A model generated the notes under the pieces. It saw only the letters and a program-made list of their open reading frames with translations, was not told the origin of the DNA and searched no databases. 12,902 nucleotides of DNA. It comes from a virus (lineage: Duplodnaviria; Heunggongvirae; Uroviricota; Caudoviricetes). Location: the IMG/VR virus record IMGVR_UViG_2541047884_000004. One strand, written 5' to 3'. The translations under genes were made by a program, and so were the position numbers. Position 1 is the stretch's first letter. Each line of letters begins with the position of its first letter. Positions 6,856 through 12,902 of the stretch are shown in pieces.

Positions 6856-7182
6856 ATGACTAAAAATACTCGTTTTTCCCCCGAAGTCCGTCAACGGGCA
6901 GTCCGTATGGTTCTGGAAAGTCAGAGCGAATATGACTCACAATGGGCGACAATTTGTTCCATTGCTCCAAAGATTGGCTGTACGCCGGAGACTCTGCGTG
7001 TCTGGGTTCGCCAGCATGAGCGGGATACCGGGGGCGGTGATGGAGGGCTCACCACCGCTGAACGTCAGCGTCTGAAAGAGCTGGAACGTGAAAATCGTGA
7101 ACTGCGCCGCAGTAACGATATCCTTCGCCAGGCTTCCGCTTATTTTGCGAAGGCGGAGTTCGACCGCCTCTGGAAAAAATGA
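6856..7182 (+). CDS. IS3-family transposase OrfA (HTH/leucine-zipper part)
   Basis: 108 aa [55 protein letters not shown]...; ends in an A6 run (7174..7179) where the -1 frame OrfB begins. Confidence 0.9.
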
Positions 7183-8069
7183 TGCCACTGCTGGATAAGC
7201 TGCGTGAGCAGTACGGGGTCGGACCGCTATGCAGCGAACTGCATATTGCCCCGTCAACGTATTACCACTGTCAGCAACAGCGACATCATCCGGATAAACG
7301 CAGTGCCCGTGCGCAGCGCGATGACTGGCTGAAGAAAGAGATACAGCGCGTATACGATGAAAATCACAAGGTATACGGTGTGCGTAAAGTCTGGCGTCAG
7401 TTGTTACGGGAAGGTATCAGAGTGGCCAGATGCACTGTGGCACGTCTCATGGCGGTTATGGGACTTGCCGGTGTTCTCCGGGGTAAAAAGGTCCGTACGA
7501 CCATCAGCCGGAAAGCCGTTGCCGCAGGCGACCGCGTAAACCGTCAGTTCGTGGCAGAACGACCTGACCAGCTGTGGGTGGCTGATTTTACTTACGTCAG
7601 CACATGGCGGGGCTTCGTCTATGTGGCGTTCATCATTGATGTGTTTGCCGGATACATCGTGGGGTGGCGGGTCTCATCGTCCATGGAAACGACATTCGTG
7701 CTGGATGCACTGGAGCAGGCGTTATGGGCCCGTCGACCGTCCGGCACGGTCCATCACAGTGATAAAGGTTCTCAGTATGTATCGCTGGCCTACACACAGC
7801 GGCTTAAGGAAGCCGGATTACTGGCATCAACAGGAAGTACAGGCGACTCGTATGACAACGCGATGGCGGAGAGCATCAATGGTCTTTACAAAGCGGAGGT
7901 AATACACCGTAAGAGCTGGAAAAACCGTGCAGAAGTGGAACTGGCCACACTCACGTGGGTGGACTGGTATAACAATCGACGATTGCTGGAAAGGCTGGGC
8001 CATACTCCTCCGGCAGAAGCAGAAAAAGCTTATTATGCTTCCATCGGAAACGATGATCTGGCAGCCTGA
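7179..8069 (+). CDS. IS3-family transposase OrfB (DDE catalytic domain); OrfAB fusion expected by programmed -1 frameshift
   Basis: 296 aa with an rve-type integrase core (…[31 protein letters not shown]… [11 protein letters not shown] … [17 protein letters not shown]…). Overlaps OrfA in the -1 frame at the A-run. Confidence 0.9.
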
Positions 8070-8111
8070 GTTCACAGATAAAACACTCTCCAGGAAACCC
8101 GGGGCGGTTCA

Positions 8112-8665
8112 CTCTGAATTGCAGCATCCGGTTTCACCACAGAAAGGTCGTTTTCTGGCTGGTCAGAGGATTCGCCAGAATTCTCTGACGAATAATCTTT
8201 TCTTTTTTCTTTTGTAATAGTGTCTTTTGTGTCCCCCTGTTTTGAGGGATAGCAATCCCCCAATTTGAGGGATGTTTTATCCCTCGTTTTAGGGGATTTT
8301 CCCTCGTTTTGAGGGATACACCATTCTGAGATGTTTTTATTTGGTCCAAACATGCCGCCTTGCTGCTTGATAATATTCATTCTGACGAGTTCTAACTTGG
8401 CTTCATTGCACCGTTTGACGGGTAACTTTGTAATCTCGCTAAGTTGAGAATCGGTGATTCTGTCCATTGGTTTATTCCATCCATAGGTTTTACGCAGAAT
8501 GGCAAGCAGCACTTTAAACTGTCGCTTGGTCAGATCTGCGCCTGAATAAGCCTCAAGCAGCATATTTGATAGTCTGGCGTAACCATCATCGAGATCTGCC
8601 ACATTACGCTCCTGTTTGGCAAAGTTACCTCTGCAGAAGTTGAGTATTTTTGCTGTATTTGTCAT
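8112..8665 (-). pseudogene. O: Replication initiator O, N-terminal (ori-binding) fragment, truncated by the IS insertion
   Basis: ATG 8665 with AGGAG RBS; MTNTAKILNFCRGNFAKQERNVADLDDGYARLSNMLLEAYSGADLTKRQFKVLLAILRKTYGWNKPMDRITDSQL... matches lambda O. The reading frame runs into the IS end and stops at 8072 after 15 IS-encoded residues. Confidence 0.9.
8185..8317. repeat. ori-lambda-type replication origin inside O: four iterons plus adjacent AT-rich region
   Basis: Four ~18-19 bp near-palindromic repeats of the TCCCTC-N-GAGGGA type (about 8232..8250, 8255..8273, 8279..8297, 8300..8317), flanked by the AT-rich stretch 8185..8231 (tgacgaataatcttttcttttttcttttgtaatagtg). Confidence 0.75.
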
Positions 8666-8697
8666 AATGACTCCTGTGGATTGATCCAGTAATGACC

Positions 8698-8994
8698 TCA
8701 GAATTCCATCTGGATTTGTTCAGAACGCTCGGTTGCCGCCGGGCGTTTTTTATTGGTGAGTCCATCAAGCGCATACTTAAAAGCCCTGCTAATCGGACTG
8801 ATGTCTGATGCCATTCCGAAAGCACACAAGACCGAAGCAATAAATCTCCAGTCCGTTCTGCTTATCTTCGATTCATGACAGCCAATCATCTTTGCCAGAC
8901 CGCGCTGGGTAATAGCTGACAGATTGATAAGTAAATCTGTTTCTGCGCGATCAACGTCACGCTGTGATAGTTTGCTGTAACTTGTTCTTTCCAT
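8698..8994 (-). CDS. cII: CII-like transcriptional activator
   Basis: 98 aa; C-terminal LTNKKRPAATERSEQIQMEF matches lambda CII as recalled, the N-terminal two thirds are divergent. Position between cro and O. Confidence 0.8.
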   Translation of the reverse strand: MERTSYSKLSQRDVDRAETDLLINLSAITQRGLAKMIGCHESKISRTDWRFIASVLCAFGMASDISPISRAFKYALDGLTNKKRPAATERSEQIQMEF

Positions 8995-9079
8995 TTCTTA
9001 AGATTTCCAATAGTGAATAGTTAGTTGAAAGGTATGCGTGGAAACGCATATGGCCTTAGTTGGTCAGATATCTTGGAAC

Positions 9080-9124
9080 TCGCTTTTCAGCGACGTAGGA
9101 CGAATGTCCGTTGTTACAAAGAGC
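9080..9124 (-). promoter_or_regulatory. nutR-like site: boxA, spacer hairpin, boxB hairpin with GAAA loop
   Basis: Minus-strand reading GCTCTTTGTAACAA (boxA-like, 9124..9111), hairpin GGAC-attc-GTCC (9109..9098), hairpin TCGCT-GAAA-AGCGA (9093..9080). It lies just after the cro stop and has the same architecture as the site upstream of N. Confidence 0.5.
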
Positions 9125-9135
9125 GGATCCGCTTA

Positions 9136-9351
9136 TTAAGCGGCTTTGTGTTCCGGCGGGAACACGTCATCAAGACTGACTTTTGCGCCTAACTTGTTTA
9201 GGCACGCAACAAGAGCACGGCATGTTTTAAGGTCTGGGAAGCGACGACCAGATTCCCAATGTCCGATAGCTCCCTGTGTGCATCCAACTGCCTTAGCAAG
9301 TGTTGTTTGAGAGATATTCAGTGACTCTCGATATTTTCGTAGGTTGCTCAT
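9136..9351 (-). CDS. cro: Cro-like repressor (HTH, XRE family)
   Basis: 71 aa from ATG 9351 (MSNLRKYRESLNISQTTLAKAVGCTQGAIGHWESGRRFPDLKTCRALVACLNKLGAKVSLDDVFPPEHKAA), preceded by GGAGGG; divergent from cI. The longer ORF-track form would overlap the operator region and is rejected. Confidence 0.75.
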   Translation of the reverse strand: MSNLRKYRESLNISQTTLAKAVGCTQGAIGHWESGRRFPDLKTCRALVACLNKLGAKVSLDDVFPPEHKAA

Positions 9352-9462
9352 ATGCCCTCCATAGTAAACACGAATAAAAAAATACAATATGTACTTTGCG
9401 AATACAAGTAAAAATACACATTGTGCATGGATGGTTCCAGTACAGAGCGTAATAATAAGGAC
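9352..9462. promoter_or_regulatory. OR region: divergent pR (for cro) and pRM (for cI) with TACA/TGTA-type operator repeats
   Basis: Candidate pR on the minus strand: TTGTAT (9407..9402), 17-bp spacer, TATTTT (9384..9379). Operator-like near-palindromes include TACAATATGTA (9383..9393) and TACAAGTA (9403..9410). The motif at 9382..9397 is shared with the pL region. Candidate pRM -10 TAATAA (9450..9455) lies 7 bp before the cI ATG. Confidence 0.55.
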
Positions 9463-10122
9463 ATGAAAATGAAATGGTATGAACTGGCTAGATCCAGAAT
9501 GAAAGAGCTCGGCATAACTCAAGAGAAGTTAGCCGAAGAGCTAGGTATGACGCAGGGTGGGATTGGACACTGGTTGCGCGGATCTCGTCATCCATCTCTT
9601 AGTGATATTGGTGTGGTGTTTAAATACCTTGGTATTGATAACATATCATTCAACCACGACGGGACATTTTCACCTGTTGGCGAATACTCATCGGCCCCAG
9701 TTAAAAAACAATATGAGTACCCTGTTTTTTCTCATGTTCAGGCTGGGATGTTCTCTCCAGAACTCAGAACCTTTACCAAAGGCGATGCGGAGAGATTGGT
9801 AAGCACAACCAAAAAAGCCAGTGACTCTGCATTCTGGCTTGAGGTTGAAGGTAACTCAATGACCGCACCAACAGGTTCCAAACCCAGCTTTCCTGACGGG
9901 ATGTTAATTCTGGTTGACCCTGAGCAAGCTGTTGAGCCCGGCGATTTCTGCATAGCCAGACTTGGTGGTGATGAATTTACCTTCAAGAAACTGATCAGGG
10001 ATAGCGGTCAGGTGTTTCTACAGCCACTAAACCCACAATACCCAATGATCCCATGCAATGAGAGTTGTTCCGTTGTGGGGAAAGTTATCGCCAGCCAATG
10101 GCCTGAAGAGACGTTTGGGTGA
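9463..10122 (+). CDS. cI: CI prophage repressor: HTH N-terminal domain plus S24 (LexA-like) autocleavage C-terminal domain
   Basis: C-terminal ~150 aa ([71 protein letters not shown]...[10 protein letters not shown]) match lambda CI as recalled, including the GNSM serine and catalytic Lys regions. N-terminal DNA-binding domain differs from lambda. Start taken at ATG 9463 (ATG 9469 also possible). Confidence 0.9.
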
Positions 10123-10161
10123 TGAAACCACTTTTATCTACAATTTACAGGGCGGTAAACA

Positions 10162-10719
10162 TTGGCAAAAATAGATGATTATCAGCCAAGCCAAGTAGAA
10201 GTTGATAAAGTACTTTATTGTAAAAAAATAGTTAACTTTTCTGGCGTTAAATGGAAACAGAAACCAAGTCGCTCTGATATGTGGCTACAAGCCCATATCA
10301 TCCCCTTGGATGAGGATTGTATACCTATACAAGGGCTAAAGTTTGAACTGAAATGGAAACCAGATCAGGATTCAGAACCTGATGACCCGATTTCTTACCC
10401 TAAAATAAATATTATTGCTTTCTATCATAACAAGAGGGTTTTCGCGGTAGATACCTATCACTTTGACAAACACACGAATAGTTACAAGGTCGATCATCCG
10501 AAGTACCAAGATATCATTTACGGTGCTCACTACCATGTATACTATGAAGAAGCTGGATACTATAGTGATAGAATAGCGTTTCCAATCGAAGATGACATAA
10601 ACCCAGATGGCCTGGTAGGGTATTGGAATTACTTCTGTAAACATCTGAACATAACTTACTCTGGGAGAATACCTTTACCGCTTGAAGATGAGTCGGGGCA
10701 AATGGGGTTTGGAATATGA
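10162..10719 (+). CDS. Hypothetical protein, 185 aa, no recognised family; first gene of a two-gene cassette at the rexAB-equivalent locus
   Basis: Long ORF in AT-rich DNA immediately downstream of cI. First in-frame start is TTG at 10162 (preceded by AGGGCGG); no in-frame ATG until codon 40. Hydrophilic, rich in aromatic and acidic residues, no obvious TM segment. Confidence 0.6.
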   Translation: MAKIDDYQPSQVEVDKVLYCKKIVNFSGVKWKQKPSRSDMWLQAHIIPLDEDCIPIQGLKFELKWKPDQDSEPDDPISYPKINIIAFYHNKRVFAVDTYHFDKHTNSYKVDHPKYQDIIYGAHYHVYYEEAGYYSDRIAFPIEDDINPDGLVGYWNYFCKHLNITYSGRIPLPLEDESGQMGFGI

Positions 10720-11468
10720 TGTGCGCAACAGTGATCTCACAACTAGGTTTCGAATGCCATCCAATAGGCAAGACCTTGAGAATTATCAGTCCATTCACTT
10801 ACTGTGATGATGGAGAGCATGTCGGTGCCTTTATCCGTGAAGTCAATGGTAGGTATTTAGTTAGTGACAGATGCGATGCCTTAATGAATATGGAGGCAAG
10901 AGGGATCTCGCTTACCAAAAAACGACTTGATGAGATACGACAATTACTGCTTAAAGAAGGCGCAGAACTCAATGCTCGAGGAGAAATCATTGCTTGGGCA
11001 ACAGAAAAGGATGTCGGTGCGATTACATCGAACATAATTAGAGCTGGTATACTCGCATCAACTTTGTCGTTAGACTGGTATCAGCCAGTTCAAGCTGAAA
11101 AGTTTGAAAGTATGGTTATTGATTATCTATATCACACAGAGCTTAGAGACGCACTTTCTCTTCGTGAAAACGTATATGGCTTGAGTGGACATCAAATTAC
11201 CGTCCCTGTAACAATAAAAACCGACATACCTAAATACGTTTTTACATCAAGCGTGAAACACGGAGGAAGCTGGAATAGTGCTTACTCATTGCTTGGGAAA
11301 CTAATTGATCTTAAAGCTTCAAGTGAGGAGTATAACAACAGATTTGTTGTTATAGACAGCGAAGCAATTGGTGATCAAATGCAACAACTCTCCTTACTCT
11401 TCCATGAATCAAGCCAAGTTCTACCATTCTCCAAAAGAGAGACTTGGGTTAAGAGACTTGCAGCATAA
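10716..11468 (+). CDS. Hypothetical protein, 250 aa, no recognised family; second gene of the cassette
   Basis: ATG 10716 overlaps the stop of the upstream gene (ATGATG...TGA, typical translational coupling). Same strand as cI, followed within 6 nt by an intrinsic terminator. No TM segments apparent. Confidence 0.65.
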   Translation: MMCATVISQLGFECHPIGKTLRIISPFTYCDDGEHVGAFIREVNGRYLVSDRCDALMNMEARGISLTKKRLDEIRQLLLKEGAELNARGEIIAWATEKDVGAITSNIIRAGILASTLSLDWYQPVQAEKFESMVIDYLYHTELRDALSLRENVYGLSGHQITVPVTIKTDIPKYVFTSSVKHGGSWNSAYSLLGKLIDLKASSEEYNNRFVVIDSEAIGDQMQQLSLLFHESSQVLPFSKRETWVKRLAA

Positions 11469-11473
11469 TACAA

Positions 11474-11499
11474 CCCGGCCTCAGCGCCGGGTTTTCTTT
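11474..11499 (+). terminator. Intrinsic terminator ending the cI-cassette transcript (tIMM-equivalent)
   Basis: cccggc / ctcag / gccggg stem-loop followed by GTTTTCTTTG. Confidence 0.6.
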
Positions 11500-11682
11500 G
11501 CCTCACGTTCGCCCACCTAAAAACACATAACCAATTATATTTATTGAAAAATAAATAGATGCAACCCACTAAACCACGCAATTCTGATCTCTCCTTACAT
11601 CGCCGAGGCAATACATCCACGCTAAAAAACAACACTATTAAATACAAAGCGTTATAAAAAACCACGCCAACTTACAACAAAT

Positions 11683-11725
11683 TGTATTGATCTTGTAAAG
11701 TACATATCGTACTATTTAACCGTCA
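11683..11725 (+). promoter_or_regulatory. pL promoter with overlapping OL operator repeats
   Basis: TTGATC (11697..11702), 17-bp spacer, TACTAT (11720..11725). Operator-like inverted repeats TACAACAAATTGTA (11683..11696), TGTAAAGTACA (11704..11714) and AGTACATATCGTACT (11709..11723). The 16-mer AAAGTACATATCGTAC (11707..11722) recurs at OR with two mismatches. Confidence 0.5.
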
Positions 11726-11761
11726 GCAGGACGCTGGAAGCCAAATGGAACAGACTGGCAG

Positions 11762-11806
11762 GCTCTTTAAACAACGTCGACTCTCGACTACGTGGCTGAA
11801 AAGCCA
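11762..11806 (+). promoter_or_regulatory. nutL-like site: boxA, spacer hairpin, boxB hairpin with GAAA loop
   Basis: GCTCTTTAAACAA (11762..11774), hairpin GTCGA-ctc-TCGAC (11776..11788), hairpin TGGCT-GAAA-AGCCA (11793..11806), about 100 nt upstream of N. Confidence 0.5.
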
Positions 11807-11904
11807 GATCACCCAACCACATAAGCTGTGGGATGCAATGCCGAAGCAACCGTCTCAGGAGGAGCTTCGAGATTGCATCGCCAAAGTTTATTCGGGAGGA
11901 ATCC

Positions 11905-12177
11905 ATGTCCAGAAAAACAGAATTTAAAGGCACCGCAGCTTCTCGCCGTAGAGCTCGTCGCGCAAATCTGCAAAGTCAGGAGGCGATCAGCTCCGACAAG
12001 CTACACAGGCCAACCCCTTCACGAGTGGTCTTGCAATGCAAGCTCAAACCAGCAATGAGAGCAGAAGTGATAACTCTGACAACGTTGACCAGAAAATATG
12101 AAGGTTCAACTTGTCTTCCGAACGTAGCTCTTTACGCGGCAGGCTACCGGAAATCAAAACAACTGACGGCGAGATGA
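11905..12177 (+). CDS. N: N-family transcription antiterminator (P22 gp24-like)
   Basis: 90 aa from ATG 11905 with GGGAGGA RBS. N-terminal arginine-rich motif (GTAASRRRARRANLQ); C-terminal LPNVALYAAGYRKSKQLTAR closely resembles the P22 gene 24 protein C-terminus as recalled. First gene after pL/nutL. Confidence 0.75.
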   Translation: MSRKTEFKGTAASRRRARRANLQSQEAISSDKLHRPTPSRVVLQCKLKPAMRAEVITLTTLTRKYEGSTCLPNVALYAAGYRKSKQLTAR

Positions 12178-12193
12178 TAAATTCATTTGCTAA

Positions 12194-12775
12194 TTACTTG
12201 TTTTTGCCATGCTTATCCTGAGCGATAAGTTCATCCATAAGGCTGTCTGCCTTCCCGGCAAACCTAATGTAGCACTCATGTCTATAGCTTTCAGGGATAA
12301 CGAAACGGTCGGTATCAGGATATCCAACAGCAGGAGGCCTTCGAACGAGGAGTCCTTTTTTGAGCAATGAAATTGATTCATGAGCGCCCTTTTCCGTTTG
12401 TAGCTGGTTATTAGCGGCTACAGCGAATGCCAAATACGCTCTTTCTCCAAGAGTTAACGAATCAAACAAATCTTGCACATATTTTTCTTCTTTAGATTTG
12501 CGCTTCTGAGCAGCGAATACCTCAATTCTTTCAGTCACAGCGTGATAAGCGGAATTAACAACGCCGTTAAGCACATAGCTAACGCAAAACAACAGGATGT
12601 AATACATCCAGTAATGAGGAAGGATTTCTGGATTATGCAGGTTTATCCATTCTTTTACGCTTACCGGCATAACAATAATCAATATGATCAGGATGATTAG
12701 CATATGAATCAACTGTTTAAGTGTCATTCCTTGCAGGAAAAAATGCATTAGTTCCTGCCACCATGAGTTGTTCAT
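12194..12775 (-). CDS. sieB: Superinfection exclusion protein B
   Basis: 193 aa from ATG 12775 (MNNSWWQELMHFFLQGMTLKQLIHMLIILIILIIVMPVSVKEW...), hydrophobic N-terminal TM region; near-identical to lambda SieB as recalled. Convergent with N. Confidence 0.85.
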   Translation of the reverse strand: MNNSWWQELMHFFLQGMTLKQLIHMLIILIILIIVMPVSVKEWINLHNPEILPHYWMYYILLFCVSYVLNGVVNSAYHAVTERIEVFAAQKRKSKEEKYVQDLFDSLTLGERAYLAFAVAANNQLQTEKGAHESISLLKKGLLVRRPPAVGYPDTDRFVIPESYRHECYIRFAGKADSLMDELIAQDKHGKNK

Positions 12776-12809
12776 CGGCGTTTCTCTTTTGCTCTCTGTA
12801 GGGGTGAAT

Positions 12810-12902
12810 TGAACCGCCCCGGGTTTCCTGGAGAGTGTTTTATCTGTGAACTCAGGCTGCCAGATCATCGTTTCCGATGGAAGCATAATAAGCTTTTTCT
12901 GC
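12810..12902 (-). mobile_element. End of a second IS3-family (IS629/IS1203-like) copy, inverted relative to the first; continues beyond the window
   Basis: 12810..12902 is the reverse complement of 8019..8111, the right end of the complete copy including its terminal inverted repeat and the 3' end of OrfB. Confidence 0.88.

What the first reader, a model, noticed from the sequence alone, without database searches (positions are those of the whole stretch)
9080..9124. Paired nut sites with identical architecture and a covarying spacer hairpin
nutR (here) and nutL (11762..11806) share a near-identical boxA (GCTCTTT-N-AACAA) and a boxB hairpin with a GAAA loop on a 5-bp stem whose sequence differs (TCGCT/AGCGA versus TGGCT/AGCCA). 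Between boxA and boxB each site has a second small hairpin whose primary sequence differs but whose pairing is kept (GGAC-attc-GTCC versus GTCGA-ctc-TCGAC). Preservation of structure despite sequence change argues that this extra stem is functional RNA, and it is not part of the canonical lambda nut site. The boxB form is lambda-like while the N protein is P22 gp24-like, an unusual pairing.
Basis: seen in the sequence. Interest (0 to 1): 0.45.

Follow-up and report, generated by a model that had tools for sequence, protein, structure and literature searches.

The report
Known spacer hairpin in phage nut sites
The two sites are the N-antitermination (nut) signals of a Shiga-toxin-phage-type prophage, and the extra small hairpin between boxA and boxB is real and evolutionarily maintained, but it is the same spacer stem-loop already described and mutated experimentally in the related phage H-19B, so it is ordinary for this phage group.

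Summary
nutR (9124..9080, minus strand) and nutL (11762..11806, plus strand) each read boxA, ACAAC, small hairpin, UACG, then a 5-bp boxB with a GAAA loop.

Both 45-nt sites are letter-for-letter those annotated as "putative N-utilization" sites in phage VT2-Sakai. The N protein is 98.9% identical to VT2-Sakai N.

The nutR hairpin, the UACG linker and the boxB stem are identical to H-19B nutR. Published work describes that site as having "two hairpins". As I recall, its spacer dyad symmetry was tested by disrupt/restore/delete mutations (Neely & Friedman 2000, the "reducer").

Across 63 distinct nut sites from relatives, the spacer stem is kept by compensatory changes. Cells are 92% paired against 59% in shuffles, with 12 different stems and free loops.

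The "lambda-like boxB with a P22-like N is unusual" claim does not hold. The loop is a true GAAA tetraloop, neither the lambda nor the P22 pentaloop, and it is the rule for this N clade.

One possibly new by-product: boxB loop type (GAAA or GACAA) tracks the length class of the N arginine-rich motif, even in mosaic phages.

Verdict: already known, low interest.

The parts
9080..9124 (-). nutR, whole site: boxA, ACAAC, spacer hairpin, UACG, boxB
   Evidence: Read. The 45 nt of the site are identical to the VT2-Sakai 'putative N-utilization rightward' sequence. CM R1 scores it 58.9 bits. It lies between cro and cII.
9110..9124 (-). nutR boxA plus rrn-like extension, GCUCUUUGUAACAAC
   Evidence: It matches the rrn/lambda boxA consensus quoted in PMC2724277.
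9098..9109 (-). nutR spacer hairpin GGAC-AUUC-GUCC (4 bp)
   Evidence: Identical to the H-19B nutR spacer. Covariation across relatives.
9094..9097 (-). conserved single-stranded linker UACG
   Evidence: Present as UACG or CACG in every recovered site. ACG was required by my regex and was in the model seed, so its invariance is not independently tested. Only the first base was free to vary, and it is always a pyrimidine.
9080..9093 (-). nutR boxB UCGCU-GAAA-AGCGA (5-bp stem, GNRA tetraloop)
   Evidence: The stem covaries in relatives (UCACU/AGUGA).
11762..11806 (+). nutL, whole site
   Evidence: Read. Identical to the VT2-Sakai 'putative N-utilization leftward' sequence. CM R1 scores it 62.5 bits.
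11762..11775 (+). nutL boxA plus extension, GCUCUUUAAACAAC
11776..11788 (+). nutL spacer hairpin GUCGA-CUC-UCGAC (5 bp)
   Evidence: In close relatives the stem is constant and the loop varies (CUC, ACAC, ACUC, AUC, GCAC). In distant relatives the stem is replaced by GGUGA/UCACC, GGCGA/UUGCC, GAUUC/GAAUC and GAGC/GCUC.
11789..11792 (+). linker UACG
11793..11806 (+). nutL boxB UGGCU-GAAA-AGCCA
11905..12177 (+). N antiterminator gene (90 aa; ARM MSRKTEFKGTAASRRRARRANLQ)
   Evidence: Translated. PF25694 N_peptide, 1.5e-32. PHROG 271. 98.9% identical to VT2-Sakai N and 41.7% to H-19B N.
9136..9351 (-). cro (the gene before nutR on the pR transcript)
   Evidence: Annotation of the 99.9%-identical phage PhiR57_1. 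HTH_3 domain.
8698..8994 (-). cII (the gene after nutR)
   Evidence: Phage_CII, 2.8e-33.
9427..10122 (+). cI repressor
   Evidence: HTH_3 plus Peptidase_S24.

Best explanation
These are the nutR and nutL RNA signals of a VT2-Sakai/H-19B-family N antitermination system.

On the pR and pL transcripts each site presents four elements:
- a consensus boxA with an rrn-like ACAAC extension;
- a 4-5-bp hairpin;
- a conserved single-stranded UACG;
- a boxB hairpin whose GAAA tetraloop is the target of the arginine-rich N-terminus of the phage N protein.

The extra hairpin is the H-19B-type spacer stem-loop, which Neely & Friedman called the 'reducer'. It is selected as an RNA structure, not as a sequence.

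By folding on itself it removes 12-16 nt from the linear spacer. The conserved flanks, ACAAC on the boxA side and UACG on the boxB side, then lie 9-11 nt apart, close to the 8-9-nt spacers of lambda. The N-NusA (and NusB/S10) complex can then assemble on RNA polymerase.

Shown here: the identity of the sites, their homology to H-19B and VT2-Sakai, and conservation of pairing by covariation.

Inferred: the distance-reducing role, and that the flanks are the protein-contacting part.
For: Identity:
- The 3.8-kb immunity region is 99.9% identical to phages ev207, ev017 and PhiR57_1.
- The nut sequences equal the annotated VT2-Sakai nut sites.
- The gene order is cII, nutR, cro, cI, nutL, N.

Homology to a characterised element:
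- H-19B nutR is CACAAUGGACAUUCGUCCUACGUCGCUGACAAAGCGA. The hairpin, linker and boxB stem are the same as in the window.
[quoted passage not shown] It reports that N plus NusA/NusG protect the spacer and boxB but not boxA.

Structure is what is conserved:
- In a structure-blind MAFFT alignment of 63 distinct sites, 92.4% of cells are paired against 59.3% in shuffles (0 of 500). The covariation score is 0.775 against 0.155. Slid controls give 31-52%.
- There are 12 different stems, loops of 3-7 nt with no conserved sequence, and G.U pairs on the transcribed sense strand in three lineages.
- The hairpin persists with three different boxB/ARM types. It is therefore not part of N-boxB recognition.

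Geometry:
- The distance from boxA to boxB is 22-25 nt linear and 9-11 nt with the insert removed.
- Lambda spacers are 8-9 nt, and NusA binds the spacer.

From memory (Neely & Friedman 2000, Mol Microbiol 38:1074; not held): one-arm changes inactivate H-19B NUT, compensatory changes restore it, and deletion of the dyad has little effect.
Against: - The mechanistic step rests on a paper I could not re-read, and on geometry.
- If deleting the hairpin costs little, it is unclear why it is kept across N proteins as diverged as about 40% identity. That argues for some additional positive role.
- No experiment exists for this phage type. Unlike H-19B it has consensus boxA elements, so its host-factor requirements may differ.
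- The invariant first G-C pair and the highly conserved flanks could also mean that a protein reads the base of the helix.
Confidence: 0.62

Rival explanations
1. The hairpin is a positively acting part of the nut site rather than a neutralised insertion. It would be a structured platform that helps NusA/N dock, or that shapes Rho loading at the overlapping nutR/rut site. It might also stabilise the leader RNA or time a pause so that boxB is presented correctly.
For: - It is conserved through at least 12 stem replacements and three boxB/ARM classes.
- The first G-C pair is invariant in 62 of 63 sites.
- In H-19B nutR the spacer is the region protected by N plus NusA/NusG. Rho also footprints there.
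Against: - Loop sequence and length, and stem sequence, are free, so any recognition would have to be shape-only.
- As I recall, deletion of the dyad in H-19B had little effect on reporter antitermination.
- No direct data exist for this phage.
Confidence: 0.25
2. The hairpin is an insulator against misfolding. By pairing with itself the spacer is kept from pairing with boxB or boxA, which would otherwise give alternative, inactive NUT structures.
For: - The title of the H-19B paper refers to 'alternative NUT RNA structures'.
- The equilibrium MFE of the isolated 56-nt nut RNAs pairs boxA with the 3' arm of boxB.
Against: In silico arm-complement, compensatory and deletion variants of the window and H-19B nut sites give no consistent change in the probability that boxB forms. 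For nutR the values are 0.84 (wild type), 0.88 and 0.93 (single-arm variants) and 0.82 (deletion). H-19B nutL gives 0.99 in all variants.
Confidence: 0.08
3. The dyad symmetry acts at the DNA level or on the opposite strand. It would be a protein-binding palindrome, or a weak intrinsic terminator for antisense transcription (hairpin plus the T-rich complement of boxA).
For: The scan flags the antisense of the nutL hairpin plus GTTGTTTAAA as terminator-like.
Against: - The stems are only 4-5 bp and the nutR T-tract is poor.
- At nutR such a terminator would block pRE-type transcription towards cI.
- G.U pairs on the sense strand (GGCGA/UUGCC, GGACG/UGUCC, GGGC/GUCC) become C.A mismatches on the other strand.
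- The palindrome sequence is not conserved, so there is no fixed protein site.
Confidence: 0.03
4. Two small hairpins arose by chance in two AT/GC-mixed spacers and have no selected role.
For: Each stem is short, and 2% of shuffles do as well.
Against: Family-wide compensatory changes are seen, and 329 of 331 instances are paired.
Confidence: 0.01

Closest known systems
H-19B (and 933W) nut sites with spacer dyad symmetry, the 'reducer' stem-loop (Neely & Friedman 2000, Mol Microbiol 38:1074; used by the Sen laboratory, PMC3526286)
   Same: - The architecture is the same: boxA region, ACAA(C/U), hairpin, UACG, 5-bp boxB.
- The nutR hairpin GGAC-AUUC-GUCC, the linker and the boxB stem UCGCU/AGCGA are identical.
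- N belongs to the same family (41.7% identity).
   Different: - The boxB loop is GAAA here and GACAA in H-19B.
- The N ARM here is 7 residues shorter.
- The nutL hairpin is GUCGA/UCGAC here and GAUUC/GAAUC in H-19B.
- Both sites here have a consensus boxA. H-19B has GCUAUUU in nutR and no recognisable boxA in nutL.
VT2-Sakai (Sp5) Stx2 phage nut sites as annotated in AP000422
   Same: The 45-nt nutL and nutR cores are letter-for-letter identical, although the flanks differ. N is 98.9% identical.
   Different: None in the sites themselves. The record only labels them 'putative N-utilization' and does not mark the inner hairpin. In the window, two different genes lie between cI and pL, and an IS element sits in the O gene.
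Lambda nutL/nutR
   Same: - boxA, spacer, boxB order and position (nutR between cro and cII, nutL before N).
- A 5-bp boxB stem closed by U-A with a GNRA-type loop.
- NusA binds the spacer.
   Different: - The lambda spacer is 8-9 nt and unstructured.
- Its loops are the pentaloops GAAAA/GAAGA with one extruded base.
- Lambda N belongs to a different ARM class.
P22 nut sites and gp24
   Same: - N is in the same Pfam family, with an alignable ARM and a near-identical C-terminus.
- The P22 boxB loop GACAA becomes GAAA if the looped-out C is removed.
   Different: - P22-type sites have no spacer hairpin (L084).
- The loop is a pentaloop.
- N is only 39% identical.

Membership tests
Lambdoid N-utilization (nut) site | Position on the early transcripts: nutR between cro and cII, nutL between pL and N | tested here: met
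   Gene map from the 99.9%-identical phage and Pfam. VT2-Sakai annotation of pL, pR and the nut sites.
Lambdoid N-utilization (nut) site | boxA element matching (C/U)GCUCUU(U)A | tested here: met
   GCUCUUUA in nutL and GCUCUUUG in nutR. Consensus from PMC2724277.
Lambdoid N-utilization (nut) site | boxB hairpin with a GNRA-type loop, downstream of boxA | tested here: met
   5-bp stems with a GAAA loop. The stems covary. The loop is a true tetraloop, not the pentaloop of lambda or P22.
Lambdoid N-utilization (nut) site | A cognate N protein with an arginine-rich motif encoded just downstream of nutL | tested here: met
   The 90-aa ORF matches PF25694 at 1.5e-32.
Lambdoid N-utilization (nut) site | N-dependent read-through of downstream terminators | not testable with these tools
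   Needs reporter or in vitro transcription assays.
H-19B-type nut site with spacer stem-loop ('reducer') | [quoted passage not shown] | tested here: met
H-19B-type nut site with spacer stem-loop ('reducer') | Sequence homology to the H-19B nut sites | tested here: met
   In nutR the hairpin, UACG and boxB stem are identical. nutL shares the ACAACG...CUACG frame.
H-19B-type nut site with spacer stem-loop ('reducer') | Pairing, not sequence, is what matters | tested here: met
   Covariation statistics. The experimental equivalent in H-19B is recalled from the literature only.
H-19B-type nut site with spacer stem-loop ('reducer') | Dispensability of boxA, NusB and S10 for N action | not testable with these tools
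   Both sites here keep a consensus boxA, unlike H-19B, so this property may not carry over.
Rfam families | Match to any curated RNA family at the nut sites | tested here: not met
   cmscan of the window with E up to 10 gives nothing at 9080-9124 or 11762-11806.

The most novel reading that the evidence does not exclude
This N clade may contain a natural class of nut sites whose boxB is a genuine 4-nt GNRA tetraloop (GAAA), with no extruded base. That class is read by a short arginine-rich motif (RRRxRRAxLQ).

Sister phages with an ARM 7 residues longer (RRRERLKxxAxxxGV) use the P22-type GACAA pentaloop.

The association holds in reciprocal mosaics. L190 has a long ARM and GACAA on a 'GAAA-clade' backbone. 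L301 has a short ARM and GAAA on an H-19B-type backbone and hairpin.

If this has not been described, it is a compact natural specificity switch for ARM-RNA recognition. The extruded pentaloop base of lambda boxB is thought to be needed for NusA-dependent function, so the finding would also say that requirement is not universal.

A second point follows. The spacer hairpin is retained across three boxB/ARM types, which hints at a role beyond a neutralised insertion.
Probability: 0.3. Interest if true: 0.45.

Novelty: already known. Interest (0 to 1): 0.2.

Why it matters
Little changes for the field. The element is the known spacer stem-loop of H-19B-type nut sites, found in a prophage whose nut sites are already annotated in VT2-Sakai.

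The useful residue is comparative:
- a clean covariation data set (63 distinct sites, 12 stems) showing that the helix is under selection across the whole clade;
- conserved ACAAC and UACG flanks that mark the likely protein-contacting spacer;
- the correlation between boxB loop type and ARM length, which could guide specificity experiments on N proteins of Shiga-toxin phages. In those phages N-dependent read-through feeds into toxin expression.

Tried and rejected
- Rfam scan of the window: no family at the nut sites.
- Neely & Friedman 2000 could not be fetched. No open paper describing the 'reducer' or nut sites of VT2-Sakai-type phages was found.
- Thermodynamic test of an 'insulator against misfolding' role: no consistent effect of arm mutations on boxB pairing probability. 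Rejected as the main explanation.
- Apparent match between the base 5' of boxA and the variable boxB stem base (G in nutL, C in nutR). It is not kept in relatives, so it is treated as chance.
- The promoter scan did not recover pL or pR at its thresholds. I relied on the VT2-Sakai annotation instead.
- Metagenome pattern scan: mostly chance hits in unrelated contigs. Only about 15 were real nut sites.
- My first regexes missed sites because of lazy or greedy matching, and were redone.
- PDB sequence search with N: no hit.
- An antisense-terminator reading of the nutL hairpin was rejected because of the sense-strand G.U pairs and the weak T-tract.

Full report
**What is in the sequence**

Reading the window confirms the finding exactly.

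On the minus strand, 9124..9080 reads GCTCTTTGTAACAAC / GGAC-ATTC-GTCC / TACG / TCGCT-GAAA-AGCGA. On the plus strand, 11762..11806 reads GCTCTTTAAACAAC / GTCGA-CTC-TCGAC / TACG / TGGCT-GAAA-AGCCA.

The only corrections are that nutR is on the reverse strand, and that the gap in 'GCTCTTT-N-AACAA' is one base in nutL and two in nutR.

Folded alone, each spacer segment adopts the stated hairpin (-5.2 and -4.9 kcal/mol; 4 of 200 shuffles do as well). In 121-nt contexts the minimum-energy structures contain both the spacer hairpin and boxB.

Isolated 56-nt RNAs instead pair boxA with the 3' arm of boxB around the spacer hairpin. That is an equilibrium alternative whose relevance is unknown.

**Context**

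The region 8600-12400 is 99.9% identical to phages ev207, ev017 and PhiR57_1, and about 95% identical in parts to many Stx phages. Annotation of PhiR57_1 together with Pfam gives this map:

| Feature | Coordinates | Strand |
|---|---|---|
| cII | 8698-8994 | - |
| nutR | 9080-9124 | - |
| cro | 9136-9351 | - |
| cI | 9427-10122 | + |
| two accessory genes | 10162-11468 | + |
| nutL | 11762-11806 | + |
| N (90 aa, PF25694, E=1.5e-32) | 11905-12177 | + |
| sieB | 12194-12886 | - |

N is 98.9% identical to VT2-Sakai N, 41.7% to H-19B and 933W N, and 39% to a P22-type gp24.

The VT2-Sakai record AP000422 already annotates 'putative N-utilization leftward' and 'rightward'. Their core sequences are identical to the window's nutL and nutR.

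**The extra hairpin is a known element**

The H-19B nutR site used by the Sen laboratory is defined by antisense oligos RS663 (spacer, CGTAGGACGAATGTCCATTGTG) and RS664 (boxB, GGGACTCGCTTTGTCAGCGACGTA). It can also be read in the H-19B record: CACAAUGGACAUUCGUCCUACGUCGCUGACAAAGCGA.

Its hairpin GGAC-AUUC-GUCC, the UACG linker and the boxB stem are identical to the window's nutR. Only the boxB loop differs (GACAA against GAAA).

That paper states that the nutR site contains two hairpins. It also reports that N plus NusA/NusG protect the spacer and boxB, but not boxA, and that Rho footprints on the same spacer.

H-19B nutL has the same frame with another stem: ACAACG-AUUC-GAAUAU-GAAUC-UACG-GCGCUGACAAAGCGC.

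The paper that analysed these 'dyad symmetries in the spacer' is Neely & Friedman 2000. It is cited but not held. From memory:
- changing one arm inactivated NUT;
- compensatory changes restored it;
- deleting the dyad had little effect;
- the authors proposed that the stem-loop (the 'reducer') brings the flanking sequences together;
- H-19B N needed NusA but not NusB, S10 or boxA.

**Is the pairing selected?**

I collected loci through N homologues and through one boxB-anchored metagenome scan.

Sites were extracted using only 'ACG + boxB' and an A.AA(C/U) anchor, with no requirement on the insert. This gave:
- 331 instances, 28 distinct inserts and 12 distinct stems;
- nutL stems GUCGA/UCGAC, GGUGA/UCACC, GGCGA/UUGCC and GAUUC(G)/(U)GAAUC;
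- nutR stems GGAC/GUCC, GGACG/UGUCC, GGACG/CGUCC, GGACA/UGUCC, GGGC/GUCC, GGGA/UCCC and GGC/GCC;
- 329 instances with at least 4 end-anchored pairs, against about 2% for shuffled inserts.

The exceptions are one 3-bp stem and one singleton (L298) with a G to C change at the first base that leaves 4 inner pairs.

On a structure-blind MAFFT alignment of 63 distinct sites, the five proposed pairs give:
- 92.4% of cells paired, against 59.3% in shuffles (0 of 500 reach it);
- a covariation score of 0.775 against 0.155;
- slid-partner controls of 31-52%;
- four pairs with changes on both sides.

A covariance model recovered both window sites and relatives without my filters. On its alignment both helices covary.

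Loops vary freely in sequence and in length (3-7 nt). G.U pairs occur on the transcribed strand in three lineages, which argues for RNA rather than DNA or antisense function.

The flanks ACAAC and UACG are nearly invariant, although they were partly imposed by my filters. They did reappear in the model-based hits, including sites with a different boxB. The model itself was built from sites carrying those flanks.

**Mechanism**

With the insert removed, the distance from the 8-nt boxA core to boxB is 9-11 nt. The linear distance is 22-25 nt.

Lambda spacers are 8-9 nt and are the NusA-binding part of nut. This fits the 'reducer' reading. The helix is a structural device that keeps the single-stranded flanks at a lambda-like spacing for assembly of the N-NusA (and NusB/S10) complex.

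An alternative 'anti-misfolding' role got no support. Arm-complement, compensatory and deletion variants did not change the predicted probability of boxB formation in a consistent way.

A weak antisense terminator-like hit at nutL is contradicted by the sense-strand G.U pairs and would be harmful at nutR.

What remains unexplained is why an insertion that is reportedly dispensable persists across the whole clade and with three different boxB/ARM types. I therefore keep a positive, shape-only role (a NusA/N platform, or an influence on Rho loading) as the main rival.

**The boxB/N claim**

The loop is a 4-nt GAAA closed by U-A. The lambda loops are GNRNA pentaloops with the fourth base extruded. 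The P22 loop is GACAA with the C looped out.

So the window's boxB is neither. It is what both become once the extruded base is removed.

The pairing is not unusual. Every N with the short ARM (RRRxRRAxLQ) has GAAA at both sites. H-19B-type N with an ARM 7 residues longer has GACAA.

The rule holds in mosaics:
- L190 has a long ARM and GACAA at both sites, on a backbone and hairpins otherwise typical of the GAAA group;
- L301, L308, L311 and L375 have a short ARM and GAAA with an H-19B-type central domain and hairpin.

A third group (L242, L244-L249) has another ARM and a boxB GGUGC-CGAGAAC-GCACC, yet keeps the spacer hairpin.

I found no paper in the held library that describes the tetraloop class. 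I offer it only as the most novel reading that is not excluded.

**Verdict**

The structural inference is supported by strong covariation.

The feature is the already characterised spacer stem-loop of H-19B-type nut sites, in a prophage whose nut sites are identical to those annotated in VT2-Sakai. Novelty: already known. Interest: low.

Noticed in passing
window 6856-8069 (+), with 7137-7253; neighbouring ORF 8072-8665 (-): An IS3-family insertion sequence. It has orfA (HTH_Tnp_1) and orfB (rve) with an ALIL frameshift pseudoknot (Rfam, 120 bits). It abuts a 197-aa Phage_rep_O ORF, so the prophage replication gene O appears to be interrupted and the prophage may be defective.
   Followed up: partly
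window 11905-11990 (N ARM) with 9080-9093 and 11793-11806; loci L093, L190, L301: boxB loop type tracks the N arginine-rich-motif class. The short ARM goes with the GAAA tetraloop, and the ARM 7 residues longer goes with the GACAA pentaloop. This includes reciprocal mosaic phages.
   Followed up: partly
L244:1734-1790 (-) and L244:4834-4890 (+); also L242, L245-L249: A third nut type. The spacer hairpin is kept (GGAC-augaa-GUCC and GAGC-gggaa-GCUC), followed by UACG-GAA and a boxB with a 7-nt loop (GCCAC-CGAGAAC-GUGGC and GGUGC-CGAGAAC-GCACC). It is paired with an N whose ARM is GKDNAKSRRNARRAEE.
   Followed up: partly
L251, L255, L257, L261, L267, L275: about 100-160 nt upstream of N: Relatives with a lambda-like ARM (MNAQEKRRAARAEKQ) and the lambda-like boxB GCGCUGAAAAAGCGC. 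They carry a covarying hairpin (GGGAC...GUCCC or GGGAA...UUCCC) immediately UPSTREAM of boxA, again preceded by ACAACG. The hairpin module seems able to sit on either side of boxA.
   Followed up: no
L233:2760-2800 (-) and L233:5630-5650 (+) (H-19B): H-19B nutL has no recognisable boxA (GGUGAAUAUACAAC), and its nutR has GCUAUUU. The window's sites both have the consensus GCUCUUU. Host-factor requirements may therefore differ between the two phage types.
   Followed up: no
window 9040-9075 (-) and 11810-11826 (+): Both nut sites are followed, 10-20 nt after boxB, by a similar short motif (ACCAACUAAG and ACCACAUAAG). It could be a boxC-like or tR1/rut-related element.
   Followed up: no
window 9129-9143: A 6-bp hairpin CCGCUUAUUAAGCGG overlaps the cro stop codon, directly upstream of the nutR boxA. 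Its antisense was flagged as terminator-like on the plus strand. Some relatives have a different sequence there (GCAUAAGUAAC...).
   Followed up: no
window 10162-11493: Two accessory genes lie between cI and pL (185 aa with no Pfam hit; 250 aa with DUF1828), followed by a strong terminator-like hairpin at 11472-11493. This cargo differs from VT2-Sakai at the same position.
   Followed up: no
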